Below the pieces are notes generated by a model. That model saw only the letters and a program-made list of their open reading frames with translations. It was not told the origin of the DNA and did not search any database. From IMG/VR virus record IMGVR_UViG_3300009085_000025, positions 1 through 64,000 of that record: a DNA stretch of 64,000 nt; one strand, given 5' to 3'. Position numbers and translations under genes: made by a program. Below, one piece after another: positions 26,156 through 30,287 of this stretch. Positions within the stretch are counted from its first letter, which is position 1, and the number at the start of each line of letters is the position of its first letter. This DNA comes from a virus. Its lineage: Duplodnaviria > Caudoviricetes.

Positions 26156-26310
26156 AAGTGAAGGTTACTCTCAACCTACAAGCCTCACAAAGACCCTACC
26201 AGTGGAAGTTATAAGGAAGTGTATTCTCATACGCTTCACTCATAACCATGTGACATCCGGTATTCACTCCGCTTCTCATCGGGCGTGAGATGCCCAACGG
26301 AGATGTCTTG
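26156..26310 (-). ncRNA. Candidate structured ncRNA A between tRNA-Arg and tRNA-Tyr
   Basis: Several helices with G-U pairs on the - strand and a GAGA tetraloop; fills the spacer exactly; no RBS-led ORF. Confidence 0.5.
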
Positions 26311-27704: not shown

Positions 27705-28967
27705 TTAAAATGGAAATTCGTCCAAAGATGATTCATTTAAAAAATTGAATTTTAGCGATTGTTGAACAAGCAATTCTTCTTCTTCTTTTCCTACGACACG
27801 TATAACTCTCGCCTTAGAAAGAATAACACTATCAGTTATCAATGATGCGTGTTGTTTGATTGCTACTGGTTCACATTCGATTAGAACTCTCTTATTTACA
27901 TTGCCATAGCTATTTCGAATTGAATGAACTCCACTAATATATGAAAACCAAAGTCCAAACCTATTATCTTCTGCTATCTCTCCAATTTTATATGTAAATT
28001 TCGGAGTGTGTTGTGAGTGAAGACTTCCATCATCTTCCATTACAACATATTTATAAACAAGGTCGGAGTTGACACTTACGTGTGTTACGTCATCGGAAAA
28101 CAATTGTCTTTTGTCCGTCTGGATAACATTCCAGAAGCCATCAATTTTGGTAAACAACTTGTTTGGAACCACACTAAAAGAAAAAGCCGTTGGTTTTATT
28201 CCGGTAAGTTTTACAACCAATTCAAGATAATCAGGAATATGAATGGCAGGAGTTGTTTTGTTGACATTTGACACATATTGAAATTCAAAATCGGTCAAGG
28301 CTTCCATCAGCGTGTCCATGGAGAAGTCTTTCTTCTTATTTTCTTCTGTGATGATATTCGCCAGAGAAGTTCCATAAAACTTTCCGAATTGTCTCTGCGC
28401 TTCTTCCCAAGAAGTAAGATTCATAGACATGAGAGAGATAATAAGTCTCATATATTGCATCTTTGAAATTGAATATCCTTCAGTTCGATATTTATCAACA
28501 CGTAAAGCAGAAATAATCGGAAACATTGTTTTCGGATTATAGTTCAAAACGCGCTGTGAATTATGCTGAAAGAATTCATCATGTAAAACAAATTCATCCG
28601 TGTCGGTTAGATACGCTCCCATGACACACGTAAAATCAAATTTTTCAAATAGCTTTTCTATATCAGAGAAATAATCAATCACAATAAATTGAACCACTGT
28701 TTCGTCAGATTTTATCATGATTGATTTGTCGGTATAATCAAAAATGATGTCAGATGTTCCCTTGATAGCCATGAGTGCACAAAACAAATCTTTTGGTGTT
28801 CTAAAATATACATCCACATCCGCTTCTAGTATTGACCTGTTGGTAAATACTCTGGATACAACACCTCCGGCAATGATTGCTCTAGATTCAATCAGGGCTT
28901 CCATCATAACATCGCTCAACATGCTTGCAATTTTCTGTGCTTCGACAGGATATTTCTTTGTAATCAT
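27705..28967 (-). CDS. Pol-beta superfamily nucleotidyltransferase (CCA/poly(A) polymerase-like head) with extra C-terminal domain
   Basis: IIAGGVV...DVDVYF...FDFTC catalytic signature; lies between two tRNA clusters. Confidence 0.75.
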   Translation of the reverse strand: MITKKYPVEAQKIASMLSDVMMEALIESRAIIAGGVVSRVFTNRSILEADVDVYFRTPKDLFCALMAIKGTSDIIFDYTDKSIMIKSDETVVQFIVIDYFSDIEKLFEKFDFTCVMGAYLTDTDEFVLHDEFFQHNSQRVLNYNPKTMFPIISALRVDKYRTEGYSISKMQYMRLIISLMSMNLTSWEEAQRQFGKFYGTSLANIITEENKKKDFSMDTLMEALTDFEFQYVSNVNKTTPAIHIPDYLELVVKLTGIKPTAFSFSVVPNKLFTKIDGFWNVIQTDKRQLFSDDVTHVSVNSDLVYKYVVMEDDGSLHSQHTPKFTYKIGEIAEDNRFGLWFSYISGVHSIRNSYGNVNKRVLIECEPVAIKQHASLITDSVILSKARVIRVVGKEEEELLVQQSLKFNFLNESSLDEFPF

Positions 28968-28973
28968 TTTTTA

Positions 28974-29411
28974 TTATTTCCTTATTTTATTGATTAATAT
29001 ATGCATATGTTCTTTAAACATATTATCATACAAATTATTTAACTCGTAATATTTTTCCCACAGTTCATTCTGTCTATCAGAATGTCTTCCGTTGTCTTCG
29101 GGGCTACCAATCTGATAAAGAATATCAATCATTCGAGAGTTGACTTGCATTCTCTCGGTTGAAAAATCTCCCTCAAGCTCACTCCAATAATCCGGATTGT
29201 ATCCACTAATAAACATAACTATCTGTCCAAATAAAAACAGAAGAATAAATGCAATCCCAAGTCCTAAAATCATAGATAAAGCCACTTCTGAAATAACGAT
29301 GATATCTTCCAACAAATAAAACTCCTTTCTTTTTATATTATAAAAGCCCACCGCAGTTGAACGAGTTCTGCAAACGATTTCGGAATTTCTCCTAAAAATA
29401 ATATCGAGCAT
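28974..29411 (-). CDS. Hypothetical membrane protein
   Basis: Hydrophobic segment LSMILGLGIAFILLFLFGQIVMF. Confidence 0.55.
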   Translation of the reverse strand: MLDIIFRRNSEIVCRTRSTAVGFYNIKRKEFYLLEDIIVISEVALSMILGLGIAFILLFLFGQIVMFISGYNPDYWSELEGDFSTERMQVNSRMIDILYQIGSPEDNGRHSDRQNELWEKYYELNNLYDNMFKEHMHILINKIRK

Positions 29412-29502
29412 ATTTTACATGGGTCGATTTCTTATTCTTGTTTGATGAGCTTTCATAATACAAAAACGTGAAATAAATAATTTTACTAATTTTTATTACT
29501 TG

Positions 29503-29574
29503 TGCATCCCTTGGGGGTCGAACCCAAAACCTGCGGATTAAAAGTCCGTTGCTCTGCCATTGAGCTAGGGAAGC
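29503..29574 (-). tRNA. tRNA-Lys (TTT)
   Basis: Acceptor GCTTCCC/GGGATGC (one mismatch), anticodon loop CTTTTAA, T-loop TTCGACC; no CCA. Confidence 0.88.
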
Positions 29575-29725
29575 ATTTTCTTGACTATCTCAGGTCGCTC
29601 TGTTTGACAATTCTCGTCACCGTAGATTAGCTCTATCGGCTTGGTTCTCTTGGATACTATCCATTGTGTCCGACTTGTCATACGTCCTTAAGTCAACGAA
29701 CAGCCCTCAATGAACAGTCAAGAAG
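29575..29725 (-). ncRNA. Candidate structured ncRNA B between tRNA-Ile2 and tRNA-Lys
   Basis: 11-bp closing helix joining both ends plus four internal hairpins, G-U pairs on - strand. Confidence 0.55.
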
Positions 29726-29798
29726 TGGGCGCGACAGGATTCGAACCTGTGACCAAGGAATTATGAGTTCCCTGCACTAACCACTGTGCTACGCACCC
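29726..29798 (-). tRNA. tRNA with CAT anticodon, most likely tRNA-Ile2 (lysidine type)
   Basis: Acceptor GGGTGCG/CGCGCCC, CTCATAA loop followed by TTGGTC as in bacterial Ile2; T-arm ACAGG-TTCGAAT-CCTGT; no CCA. Confidence 0.85.
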
Positions 29799-29972
29799 AA
29801 CTTGCTTCTACATATGTAGAAGTAAGTATTTATACATAAGTATATCATGAAACACATGTCTGTGTCAAATTACTTTGGAAGCAAGATGAGTAATTTCAAA
29901 ACACCAGACAATATTACAATCAAAACGGCGGGTACGACAAAAGATTTTATATCACTACTTGTTTTCACTTTG

Positions 29973-30287
29973 CTAATCCTTTTTTTCCGGTCTAATTCTA
30001 TATTGAAAACTTCCTCTACGACCATCATTATTTATGGAAACTAAAGCCATCAACGCAGACTTTCTCGAATCGTATGTTTTGTATTTATGCCACTTTTGCC
30101 AAGATGGAAAAGGCAAGTCTCCCATATAACGTGTTTCAATAACAATTTTTTGCTTCTTCTTTGGTGGTTTTGATTTTTCACAGGGTAAATTTGTTTCAGA
30201 AGGTTCTAGGCATTCTCTTTCACAATTTCCACAGATATATCCTTCTAATTCATCTGTCACCCATGTCGGTATCCATATATGTTCCAT
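29973..30287 (-). CDS. Hypothetical protein
   Basis: 104 aa, CxxC. Confidence 0.6.
   Translation of the reverse strand: MEHIWIPTWVTDELEGYICGNCERECLEPSETNLPCEKSKPPKKKQKIVIETRYMGDLPFPSWQKWHKYKTYDSRKSALMALVSINNDGRRGSFQYRIRPEKKD

What the first reader, a model, noticed from the sequence alone, without database searches (positions are those of the whole stretch)
29575..29725. Candidate novel ~150-nt multibranch ncRNA (B) between tRNA-Ile2 and tRNA-Lys
Seen on the - strand: the ends pair (UUCUUGACUGU/AUAGUCAAGAA) and enclose CUGUU/AACAG, UUGACUU/AAGUCGG (two G-U), UGGAU/AUCCA, GCCG-UAGA/UCUA-CGGU and GACGA/UUGUC. The G-U pairs would be A-C mismatches on the + strand, and the element fills the spacer to within a few bases of each tRNA. 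Known: tRNA processing releases flanking RNAs, and phage ncRNAs such as GOLLD, ROOL and Y-like RNAs often lie next to tRNA genes. Inference: a discrete processed RNA of a class I do not recognise.
Basis: partly seen in the sequence, partly recalled or inferred. Interest (0 to 1): 0.7.

Follow-up and report, generated by a model that had tools for sequence, protein, structure and literature searches.

The report
Phage kink-turn RNA between two tRNAs
The 150-base spacer between two phage tRNA genes encodes a real, conserved, folded RNA of a family seen here only in viral and metagenome contigs and absent from Rfam; every copy collected keeps one kink-turn-like "handle" under a changeable inner domain, and its function is still unknown.

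Summary
Window 29575-29724 (- strand) exactly fills the gap between tRNA(CAU) and tRNA-Lys and closes with a 12-bp terminal helix (MFE z = -2.9).

It is a member of a family I collected from uncultivated phages: about 77 distinct sequences. All share:
- P1, variable in sequence, 5-26 bp
- an internal loop: 5' U-CAUU-GA-GGG against 3' AGCGA-CCU-GA-G
- P2, 4-5 bp
- usually a P3 hairpin (loop ACUAAG) and P4
- a variable inner domain, tRNA-like in some members

P2 and P4 were not used to select members, and they covary strongly. A covariance model built without the window scores it at 59.6 bits (E 8e-17). It finds nothing in 789 kb of control phage tRNA loci.

The loop reads as a box C/D- or U4-type kink-turn. 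There was no Rfam 15 match and no blastn match in 50,697 GenBank phages. None of the 8 pattern matches in 185,579 prokaryote genomes has the helix.

No partner was found. Ro60 (TROVE) is linked only occasionally. L7Ae, Nop and the neighbouring nucleotidyltransferase are not linked. There are no expression data.

Best reading: a modular, Y-RNA-like phage ncRNA released by tRNA processing. Another reader of this scan noted the same stretch as 6S-like; I do not support that.

The parts
29839..29868 (-). Sigma-70-like promoter TTGACA-18 nt-(TG)TATACT, about 40 nt upstream of tRNA(CAU)
   Evidence: 11 of 12 consensus matches with an extended -10 TG. No terminator-like site in 29300-30100. This is a consensus match only, not shown to be active.
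29725..29798 (-). tRNA with CAU anticodon (Met or Ile2), no encoded CCA. Its 3' end abuts the RNA.
   Evidence: 71.5 bits; sequence.
29713..29724 (-). P1, 5' strand (UUCUUGACUGUU)
   Evidence: Pairs with 29578-29589. A P1 of at least 5 bp flanks the motifs in 61 of 93 pattern matches in viral contigs and 48 of 55 metagenome hits, with 26 different hexamers.
29704..29712 (-). 5' strand of the conserved loop, CAUU-GA-GGG. This is the bulged strand of the kink-turn-like motif.
   Evidence: Identical in all members collected, partly because the search pattern required it. One variant, CACUGAGGG, was found by the model in L225.
29699..29703 (-). P2, 5' strand (CUGUU)
   Evidence: Pairs with 29600-29604. 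P2 was not used for selection, yet its four positions are paired in 46/46, 46/46, 45/46 and 44/46 members, with 4-6 pair types each.
29683..29698 (-). P3 hairpin (CGUU-GACUUAAG-GACG), equivalent to the family's UCGUC-ACUAA-GACGU
   Evidence: P3 is present in most members but absent from the tRNA-like and minimal forms.
29675..29680 (-). P4, 5' strand (UGACAA)
   Evidence: Pairs with UUGUCA at 29605-29610. In A8, 6 of 7 P4 pairs show changes on both sides. In A7, 4 of 7 do.
29619..29663 (-). Variable inner domain: hairpin UGGAU-AGU-AUCCA (29651-29663) and nested hairpin GCCG-A-UAGA-GCUAA-UCUA-CGGU (29619-29640), joined by A-rich strands
   Evidence: The nested hairpin has the same layout as P6/P6a of class 1. 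Model R2 did not align this part of the window.
29605..29610 (-). P4, 3' strand (UUGUCA)
29600..29604 (-). P2, 3' strand (AACAG)
29590..29599 (-). 3' strand of the conserved loop: 5-nt bulge AGCGA, then CCU-GA (the CUGA is box-D-like)
   Evidence: The A before GCGACC was not in the first search patterns, yet it is present in 46/46 members and absent from most chance matches.
29578..29589 (-). P1, 3' strand (GAUAGUCAAGAA)
29575..29577 (-). 3-nt tail AAU before tRNA-Lys
   Evidence: Sequence.
29502..29574 (-). tRNA-Lys(UUU), no encoded CCA. Its 5' end would define the RNA's 3' end after RNase P cleavage.
   Evidence: 62.4 bits.

Best explanation
The spacer encodes one copy of a modular non-coding RNA family found in uncultivated phages and not yet catalogued in Rfam.

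The family has a conserved basal handle and a variable inner domain.
- The handle is a terminal helix P1, a kink-turn-like internal loop, a 5-nt bulge AGCGA three pairs further in, and helix P2. In the loop, a bulge (CAUU, or AUU if C13 pairs with the G) precedes tandem G-A/A-G, followed by G-U, G-C, G-C.
- The inner domain in this window is a three-way junction: P3 hairpin, P4 and two inner hairpins. Other phages carry a tRNA-elbow mimic, a mini-tRNA, or just a 23-nt loop.

Inferred biogenesis: transcription from the promoter-like site at 29868-29839 as tRNA(CAU)-RNA-tRNA(Lys). RNase Z-type cleavage behind the CCA-less upstream tRNA and RNase P cleavage in front of tRNA-Lys would then free a roughly 150-nt RNA. 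Its ends are locked in P1, with a 3-nt 3' tail.

Inferred action: the handle is a docking site for a conserved factor, most likely from the host because no phage protein is shared. The inner domain would be the effector part. This is the design logic of Y RNAs.

My odds for each step:
- real, selected RNA structure: 0.97
- handle is a kink-turn: 0.7
- released as a discrete RNA: 0.7
- handle-plus-effector RNP function: 0.45
For: **Family and structure**
- Three exact-pattern scans of IMG/VR gave 93 matches in 91 loci. Of these, 61 (47 distinct sequences) have a helix of at least 5 bp directly flanking the two motifs. The other 32 have 0-4 bp and look like chance matches.
- An independent metagenome scan gave 55 hits, 48 with P1 and 30 with new cores.
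- P2 was not used for selection and is paired in 44-46 of 46 members at four positions, with many pair types.
- Class-1 alignment A7: 97% of cells paired, 24 of 44 pairs changed on both sides, 0 of 500 shuffles as good, and 31-46% paired when the partners are slid.
- Eleven diverse members including the window (A8): 93% paired, 18 of 26 pairs changed on both sides, 0 of 500 shuffles as good.

**Membership of the window**
- Model R1, built without the window, scores it at 59.6 bits, E 8e-17.
- Class-1 model R2 aligns its P1, loop, P2, P3 and P4 at 46.8 bits.
- R1 has 0 hits in 789 kb of control phage tRNA loci.
- R1 found one copy in each of four complete genomes and in each member locus searched.

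**RNA-level, strand-specific**
- G-U is frequent at fixed places: the P1 closing pair in 38/46 and P2 pair 1 in 19/46.
- Every flanking tRNA is on the same strand (25/25).

**Link to tRNA processing**
- P1 starts 0-10 nt after a tRNA in 14 of 47 viral members, 8 of 38 metagenome members, and in L274.
- L329 fills a tRNA-Glu/tRNA-Asp spacer exactly as the window's copy does.
- A promoter-like site lies upstream.

**Kink-turn reading** (from my knowledge of k-turns)
- The loop reads C-AUU-GAGGG / CCU-GA-G. The U4 snRNA k-turn is C-AAU-GAGG / CC-GA-G, and the box D consensus is CUGA.
- Variant L225 has a regular C-G closing pair and a 3-nt loop.

**Modularity**
- The 66-nt L274 keeps only the handle and a loop.
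- L116 carries a tRNA-like insert that scores 32 bits on Rfam tRNA.
- The L125, L145 and L157 groups carry D-loop- and T-arm-like sequences.

**Phage-restricted**
- None of 8 pattern matches in 185,579 prokaryote genomes has P1.
Against: - No expression or end-mapping data. The runs that hold the stretch are DNA, and the one RNA run only touches the tRNAs.
- The motifs look invariant largely because homologues were fished with exact motifs. Only one variant was recovered (L225).
- The kink-turn register is ambiguous. In most members the G after CUGA can pair either with U12, giving a 4-nt loop, or with C13, leaving U12 bulged. Eight of 46 have an extra A there.
- No binding partner was identified. 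Four complete genomes share no protein by blastp. L7Ae 0/23, Nop 0/23, the neighbouring NTase 0/58, TROVE 2/58.
- Most bacteria lack known k-turn-binding proteins, so a protein handle needs an unknown partner.
- A conserved P3-P4 junction, with conserved GG / ACA next to P4, would also fit an RNA that folds and acts on its own.
- Nineteen of 47 members have no tRNA in the fetched locus (some of those loci are short), so release by tRNA processing cannot be the general route.
Confidence: 0.55

Rival explanations
1. It is a phage Y RNA. The handle would be the binding site of a Ro60 (TROVE/Rsr) protein, phage- or host-encoded, and the inner domain would tether another factor, as in YrlA.
For: - The architecture matches: a terminal stem carrying a conserved helix with bulges on opposite strands, plus a variable module that is tRNA-like in several members (PMC4201824; bioRxiv 10.1101/312249).
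- The window's nearest relatives L091 and L092 encode TROVE directly upstream of the same NTase. L092 has the RNA 1.4 kb downstream of TROVE on the same strand.
- L154 has TROVE 208 nt downstream of the RNA.
- L274 and L225, both fetched through TROVE, carry the RNA 1-5 kb upstream on the same strand.
- That is far more than expected from roughly one exact-motif copy per gigabase of IMG/VR (my estimate).
Against: - TROVE is found in only 2 of 58 element-bearing viral records, and in G004 it lies 212 kb away.
- Six genomes at least 90% complete carry the RNA and no TROVE.
- Only 2 of 80 phage TROVE loci (8 kb on each side) carry the RNA.
- No TROVE in 242 kb of metagenome member loci, and none in the window's own 81-kb record.
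- The Ro60 motif GNCGAAN0-1G on the 5' strand (PMC4201824) is absent.
- The tRNA-like inserts run D arm then T arm, not in YrlA's permuted order.
- L091 has TROVE but no model hit.
Confidence: 0.12
2. It is an RNA that works without a dedicated protein. The kink-turn bends P1 so that the bulge, the P3 loop and the junction pack into a compact fold. That fold would bind a small molecule or another RNA, for example a tRNA as T-box stem I does. It would act as a trans-acting aptamer, sponge or tRNA-docking RNA.
For: - In bacteria, kink-turns are mostly known in riboswitches and T-box leaders, where they serve tertiary folding (my knowledge).
- Conservation extends beyond the handle: the P3 loop ACUAAG, GG after P4, and ACA(U) before the P4 3' strand.
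- No shared phage protein and no L7Ae or Nop homologue.
- The handle has the same polarity as the T-box stem I base: the k-turn bulge is on the 5' strand and a purine-ended loop sits on the 3' strand just above it (my knowledge of PDB 4LCK-type stem I).
Against: - The minimal member L274 and the tRNA-like members lack P3 and P4 yet keep the handle, so the handle must work alone.
- No T-box or riboswitch family appears even at E up to 10.
- AGCGA is the same in every member, which does not fit a specifier that should vary with the tRNA.
Confidence: 0.15
3. It is a self-cleaving or otherwise catalytic element that processes the transcript at its own 5' edge. It would mature the 3' end of the upstream tRNA, as HDV-like theta ribozymes do behind phage tRNAs.
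For: - P1 starts 0-10 nt behind a tRNA in about a quarter to a third of members.
- A strictly conserved internal loop is typical of small ribozymes.
- Theta ribozymes set a precedent for ribozymes directly 3' of phage tRNAs (my knowledge; not checked in a paper here).
Against: - The distance to the tRNA end varies from 0 to 10 nt, so cleavage at P1 would leave ragged tRNA ends.
- Many members have no nearby tRNA.
- No known ribozyme family matched.
- The loop reads as an ordinary kink-turn, not as a known active site.
Confidence: 0.08
4. It is only a cis-acting structured spacer with no function as a free RNA. It would insulate neighbouring pre-tRNAs from misfolding or guide RNase access.
For: It fills the spacer to within 0-3 nt of both tRNAs here and in L329. 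No expression data show a stable product.
Against: - The same handle occurs far from any tRNA in many phages, and as a single copy per genome even where there are 20 or more tRNAs.
- About 20 nucleotides stay identical across phages of 35-58% GC that share no proteins. That is far more than a spacer role needs.
Confidence: 0.05

Closest known systems
Y RNAs, especially bacterial and phage YrlA (Ro60/Rsr-bound; PMC4201824; bioRxiv 10.1101/312249)
   Same: - About 80-220 nt, with 5' and 3' ends paired in a long stem that carries a conserved, bulge-flanked helix.
- A modular second domain, tRNA-like in some members.
- Occurs in phages rich in tRNA genes.
- A few members lie within 0.2-5 kb of a TROVE gene on the same strand.
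   Different: - The Ro60 motif GNCGAAN0-1G is missing. The conserved loop here is a k-turn-like GA/GA motif plus an AGCGA bulge.
- The tRNA-like inserts are not permuted.
- Most carriers have no TROVE gene.
- Not seen in cellular genomes, whereas YrlA is mainly bacterial.
Box C/D and U4-type kink-turn RNAs (L7Ae/15.5K-bound; archaea and eukaryotes)
   Same: - A terminal stem is followed on the 5' strand by a short loop and GA, and on the 3' strand by CUGA directly before the stem. This is the position and sequence of box D.
- The loop is nearly the same as the U4 5' stem-loop k-turn.
- Plant dicistronic tRNA-snoRNA genes also use tRNA processing to release a k-turn RNA (my knowledge).
   Different: - No C'/D' boxes and no variable guide next to CUGA; the sequence there is fixed as AGCGAC.
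- No L7Ae, Nop or similar gene in 23 carrier genomes.
- The hosts are presumably bacteria, most of which lack L7Ae-type proteins.
Phage T4 species 1 and 2 RNAs (rnaC, rnaD)
   Same: Stable small RNAs of 139 and 119 nt of unknown function. They are encoded directly behind tRNA-Arg in the T4 tRNA cluster on the same strand, with 1-nt and 6-nt gaps. rnaC ends in a T-arm-like sequence.
   Different: No sequence or model similarity. The best R1 hit in the T4 region is 9.6 bits and lies elsewhere. T4 has no k-turn loop.
tRNA-spacer-derived RNAs and tRNA-linked ncRNAs (E. coli 3'ETS-leuZ sponge, MALAT1 mascRNA, MHV68 tRNA-miRNA units, GOLLD/ROOL next to tRNAs)
   Same: RNase P and RNase Z processing of neighbouring tRNAs defines the ends of a second functional RNA (my knowledge).
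   Different: Those RNAs are unrelated in sequence and fold. None has this handle, and no Rfam family matched.

Membership tests
New phage kink-turn-handle RNA family (defined here) | P1 helix directly flanking 5' UCAUUGAGGG and 3' AGCGACCUGA(G/AA) | tested here: met
   Window: 12-bp P1 with both motifs exact.
New phage kink-turn-handle RNA family (defined here) | P2 of 4-5 bp directly inside the loop | tested here: met
   CUGUU/AACAG in the window. Family positions 1-4 are paired in 44-46 of 46 members.
New phage kink-turn-handle RNA family (defined here) | Significant score against a covariance model built without the candidate | tested here: met
   R1: 59.6 bits, E 8e-17, with 0 hits in 789 kb of controls.
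New phage kink-turn-handle RNA family (defined here) | P3 hairpin and P4 forming a three-way junction (majority subtype) | tested here: met
   R2 aligns the window's P3 and P4 at 46.8 bits. P4 covaries. The inner P5/P6 region is not alignable to class 1.
Kink-turn motif | Tandem sheared G-A/A-G next to a 3-nt bulge closed by a Watson-Crick pair, with C and NC stems | tested here: inconclusive
   The sequence fits: GA on both strands, a possible C13-G pair, loop AUU, then G-U, G-C, G-C. It closely resembles U4 and box C/D. The P1 register leaves either a 4-nt loop or a bulged U12. L225 has the regular form. The 3D geometry cannot be tested with these tools.
Y RNA / YrlA | Ro60-binding motif GNCGAAN0-1G (GGUCCGA-like) on the 5' strand of the stem | tested here: not met
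   The 5' strand is UCAUUGAGGG. The nearest GCGA lies on the 3' strand in a different context (motif from PMC4201824).
Y RNA / YrlA | Encoded within about 4 kb of a Ro60/TROVE gene on the same strand | tested here: not met
   No TROVE in the window's 81-kb record. Family-wide: 2 of 58 records, and 2 of 80 TROVE loci. It is met only for L092, L154, L274 and L225.
Y RNA / YrlA | tRNA-like effector domain in permuted order (T arm, acceptor-like hairpin, D arm) | tested here: not met
   The window's inner domain has no tRNA-like hit at E up to 10. The tRNA-like members run D arm then T arm.
Box C/D RNA | C box RUGAUGA and D box CUGA at the termini, plus internal C'/D' boxes and guide sequences upstream of D/D' | tested here: not met
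   CUGA is present. The C-like box is AUUGAGG. There is no C'/D', and the sequence 5' of CUGA is the fixed AGCGAC rather than a guide. No snoRNA family overlaps the element at E up to 10.
Box C/D RNA | L7Ae, Nop5 and fibrillarin partners | tested here: not met
   L7Ae 0/23 and Nop 0/23 carrier genomes, with positive controls ringing in archaea. Fibrillarin was not searched.
T4 species 1/2 RNAs | Sequence or structure homology to rnaC or rnaD | tested here: not met
   R1 with filters off finds nothing at rnaC or rnaD. The motifs are absent from the sequence.
6S RNA (reading of another first-stage note) | Long rod with a central open-promoter-like bubble; match to a 6S family | tested here: not met
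   The covariation-supported fold is branched. No 6S family appears at E up to 10.

The most novel reading that the evidence does not exclude
The handle is a universal docking module, so far seen only in viral and metagenome contigs. Through it, very different phages would present diverse RNA cargoes (tRNA-elbow mimics, mini-tRNAs, three-way junctions) to one conserved host machine. That machine could be an RNA-processing or repair enzyme, the ribosome, or a tRNA-targeting defence nuclease. This would be a bacterial-virus counterpart of Y RNA or snoRNA-type RNPs, built on a kink-turn in hosts not known to have kink-turn RNPs, and possibly an RNA-based counter-defence.
Probability: 0.25. Interest if true: 0.85.

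Novelty: new variant of a known kind. Interest (0 to 1): 0.66.

Why it matters
Phage tRNA clusters have been known since T4 to encode extra stable RNAs of unknown function. Here one such RNA turns out to belong to a widespread family, not described in any source I could search, with very strong comparative support.

The family is distinctive in several ways:
- It keeps an identical handle of about 20 nt across phages that share no proteins and range from 35 to 58% GC.
- It carries interchangeable inner domains, some mimicking tRNA.
- None of the matches in 185,579 cellular genomes has the helix.

That pattern points to an interaction with something highly conserved in the host. It also gives a small (66-180 nt), well-defined object for structure determination, pull-downs and genetics. 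If the loop is a true kink-turn used as a protein platform, kink-turn RNPs would extend into bacterial viruses. If the RNA acts alone, it is a new compact fold.

It also gives annotators a model for a recurrent "empty" spacer in phage tRNA arrays.

Tried and rejected
- **Rfam 15.** Gathering threshold on the whole window, E up to 10 on 29300-30000, gathering on 16 member loci, and E up to 5 on L116 and L106. Only tRNAs, tmRNA and group I introns turned up; nothing on the element.
- **blastn against 50,697 GenBank phages.** Queries were the window region and members L101, L125 and L139. Only tRNA pieces matched.
- **Early homologue searches that found nothing.** An exact 28-mer from the window's interior found nothing in IMG/VR. 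Single-protein searches for related loci with the NTase and the 145-aa neighbour found no relatives. A tRNA-to-tRNA spacing pattern gave 89 loci, none with a related spacer; these served as controls.
- **Sequencing runs.** The stretch is held whole in one freshwater-sediment DNA run, which may be its source, and in part by two more. Laid contigs covered little beyond the tRNAs. The one RNA run touched only tRNA-like parts. This gives no evidence on expression or ends.
- **Partner hunting.** TROVE, L7Ae (85), Nop (95), the Gad2-like NTase (105), all-against-all blastp of four complete carrier genomes (64), local ORF clustering of 47 loci (54, 56) and neighbour annotation in two complete genomes (104). 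No consistent partner or gene neighbourhood emerged.
- **T4 rnaC/rnaD.** Same context, no homology.
- **Literature.** Searching the two motifs as words gave only unrelated primers. Keyword searches found no description of this RNA. The 8,495 IMG/VR candidates of PMC10690425 could not be inspected, so the family may be listed there without a name.
- **Rejected readings.** Degenerate tRNA remnants: no tRNA-like score in the window's spacer, and the handle is conserved instead. A DNA-level element: fixed G-U pairs and strict co-orientation with tRNAs. A coding region: only a spurious 42-aa + strand ORF overlaps tRNA-Lys. 6S-like rod: the fold is branched and there is no 6S match.
Full report
**1. 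What is at the coordinates**

ARAGORN and Rfam place a CAU-anticodon tRNA at 29725/6-29798 and tRNA-Lys(UUU) at 29502/3-29574, both on the - strand. The 150 nt between them (29575-29724) match no Rfam 15 family, even at E up to 10.

Read on the - strand, the spacer folds to -41.8 kcal/mol, z = -2.94, with 0 of 200 shuffles as good. The other strand is weaker. Neither tRNA encodes CCA (sequence).

A strong sigma-70-like site, TTGACA-18-TGnTATACT, lies about 40 nt upstream of the first tRNA, and no terminator-like site follows. The window is part of an 81-kb IMG/VR phage record estimated 58% complete. It comes from a freshwater-sediment metagenome.

**2. Finding relatives**

Nothing similar exists in GenBank phages. 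Direct searches with neighbouring proteins failed.

The nucleotidyltransferase next to the tRNAs (Pfam PF26128, "Gad2") has relatives at about 50% identity. Two of their contigs (L091, L092) carry tRNA arrays. Behind tRNA-Gly in L092 lies a sequence that shares with the window only two blocks, GUUCAUUGAGGG at the 5' end and AGCGACCUGA at the 3' end. The flanking helix has changed from UUGACUGU/AUAGUCAA to UUGUUUGUU/AACAAACAA.

I used the two blocks as an exact pattern with three gap ranges:
- IMG/VR gave 93 matches in 91 loci. Of these, 61 (47 distinct sequences) have a helix of at least 5 bp directly flanking the blocks. The other 32 have 0-4 bp, about the number I expected by chance.
- A later, independent scan of JGI and ENA metagenome contigs gave 55 hits, 48 with the helix and 30 with new cores.
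- The same kind of pattern in 185,579 prokaryote genomes (596 Gb) gave 8 hits, none with a helix and none near a tRNA.

The family was therefore seen only in viral and metagenome contigs.

**3. Architecture and covariation**

All members share this layout:
- P1, 5-26 bp, with 26 different hexamers
- 5' U-CAUU-GA-GGG
- P2
- an inner domain
- the P2 3' strand
- AGCGA-CCU-GA-G (or -AA)
- the P1 3' strand

P2 played no part in selection, yet its four positions are paired in 46/46, 46/46, 45/46 and 44/46 members, with 4-6 pair types each. The A before GCGACC, also not required at first, is present in 46/46.

Most members then have a P3 hairpin (UCGUC-ACUAA-GACGU) and a helix P4 that stacks on P2 along the 3' strand, forming a three-way junction.

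Covariation counts:

| Alignment | Content | Cells paired | Pairs changed on both sides | Shuffles as good | Paired when slid |
|---|---|---|---|---|---|
| A7 | closest subfamily ("class 1"), 11 sequences, 44 pairs in 9 helices | 97% | 24 of 44 | 0 of 500 | 31-46% |
| A8 | 11 diverse members including the window, fitted to the model, which leans towards the structure | 93% | 18 of 26, including 6 of 7 in P4 | 0 of 500 | 33-45% |

**4. The window's copy**

A covariance model built from 33 members without the window scores it at 59.6 bits, E 8e-17. The model finds nothing in 789 kb of unrelated phage tRNA-array loci. It finds one copy in each of four complete genomes and in each member locus searched.

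A class-1 model aligns the window's P1, loop, P2 (CUGUU/AACAG), P3 (CGUU...GACG) and P4 (UGACAA/UUGUCA) at 46.8 bits. It cannot align the inner hairpins.

UGGAU/AUCCA is plausible. UUGACUU/AAGUCGG and GACGA/UUGUC are displaced by P3 and P4.

**5. RNA, not DNA**

G-U pairs sit at fixed positions: the P1 closing pair in 38/46 and P2 pair 1 in 19/46. Every tRNA flanking a member is on the same strand (25/25).

In 14 of 47 viral members, 8 of 38 metagenome members, and in L274, P1 begins 0-10 nt after a tRNA. L329 fills a tRNA-Glu/tRNA-Asp spacer exactly as the window's copy fills its own. But 19 of 47 members have no tRNA in the fetched locus (some of those loci are short), so the RNA is not merely a tRNA spacer.

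**6. The conserved loop**

Written as strands, the loop is 5' (P1)-U-C-AUU-GA-GGG-(P2) and 5' (P2)-AGCGA-CCU-GA-G-(P1).

The two GA dinucleotides can form tandem sheared pairs followed by G-U, G-C, G-C. The CUGA lies where box D lies in C/D RNAs. The whole loop is close to the U4 snRNA k-turn, C-AAU-GAGG / CC-GA-G (my knowledge of these motifs).

The register is not settled. The G after CUGA can pair with U12, giving a 4-nt loop, or with C13, leaving U12 bulged. The one sequence variant recovered, L225 (CACUGAGGG with an extra G opposite), has the regular C-G closing pair and a 3-nt loop.

Three pairs further in, the opposite strand carries the AGCGA bulge, the same in every member collected.

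**7. Modularity**

The inner domain ranges widely:
- a 23-nt loop in the 66-nt L274
- a mini-tRNA in L116, 32 bits on the Rfam tRNA model
- D-loop plus T-arm elbow-like inserts without anticodon or acceptor stems in the L125, L145 and L157 groups
- a CCCGAGGAUUCCGGG type
- the three-way-junction type of the window

**8. Looking for a partner**

| Candidate | Result |
|---|---|
| TROVE (Ro60), forward | Adjacent to the NTase in L091 and L092; 208 nt from the RNA in L154. Only 2 of 58 carrier records have it, and in one it is 212 kb away. Six genomes at least 90% complete lack it. |
| TROVE (Ro60), reverse | Only 2 of 80 phage TROVE loci carry the RNA. |
| TROVE in metagenome loci | None in 242 kb. 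|
| L7Ae | 0 of 23 |
| Nop | 0 of 23 |
| Neighbouring NTase | 0 of 58 |
| Any shared protein | Four complete carrier genomes (GC 44-58%) share essentially none by blastp. |

The co-occurrence with TROVE is above background but far from obligatory. The published Ro60 motif is absent (PMC4201824). Gene neighbourhoods differ among carriers.

T4's rnaC and rnaD occupy the same kind of place but are not homologous.

**9. Interpretation**

Shown:
- a conserved, covarying, strand-specific RNA structure
- a family seen here only in viral and metagenome contigs
- one copy in each genome or locus searched
- frequent embedding in tRNA transcription units
- an identical handle with exchangeable cargo

Inferred:
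- release by RNase Z and RNase P at the flanking tRNAs
- a kink-turn geometry
- a function in which the handle docks to a conserved, probably host, factor while the cargo provides specificity, which is Y-RNA-like logic

Rivals:
- a true Ro60-bound Y RNA
- an autonomously folding aptamer or tRNA-docking RNA
- a processing ribozyme
- a mere cis spacer

No expression data exist.

**10. Novelty**

The RNA is not in Rfam 15 and has no match in GenBank phages. I found no description of it in the papers I could search. It may sit unnamed among the roughly 8,500 IMG/VR candidates of PMC10690425, which I could not inspect.

I file it as a new variant of a known kind: phage ncRNAs co-processed with tRNAs, with a modular handle-plus-effector design.

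Noticed in passing
window 26156-26309 (- strand): The 154-nt spacer between tRNA-Arg and tRNA-Tyr also folds unusually well: -51.6 kcal/mol, z = -2.89, 0 of 200 shuffles as good. It lacks the handle motifs and is not hit by model R1.
   Followed up: partly
window 27705-28967 (- strand); L091:3191-5912; L092:5865-8590: The 420-aa nucleotidyltransferase between the two tRNA clusters matches Pfam PF26128 (Gad2). In its closest relatives it sits directly downstream of a TROVE/Ro60 gene. In L092 it also lies near RlaP-like and AAA_33 kinase-like genes, so the arrangement looks like an RNA-repair or processing cassette inside tRNA arrays. The window's phage has a 145-aa ORF of no known family in the place of TROVE.
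   Followed up: partly
L274:6872-6937: A minimal 66-nt family member (P1, loop, P2 and a 23-nt loop) lies 1-2 nt after a CCA-encoding tRNA and about 1 kb upstream of a TROVE gene. It is a convenient construct for structural work.
   Followed up: partly
L100, L101, L107, L114, L121, L274: the 10-12 nt after P1: In class 1 and in L274, the sequence just 3' of P1 is also similar (AAAUYCAUUUU-like). The mature RNA may therefore carry a conserved single-stranded 3' tail.
   Followed up: no
L101:800-990 and L114:412-596; L101:5175-5563 and L122:7315-7619: Class-1 carrier phages also encode group I introns and tmRNA within their tRNA regions, and several HNH endonucleases lie nearby.
   Followed up: no
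window 29338-29496: One contig of a 2024 freshwater run joins 29338 to 29496 with CTTG in between, skipping 157 nt downstream of tRNA-Lys, including the start of the 145-aa ORF. This is a strain variant of the same phage.
   Followed up: no
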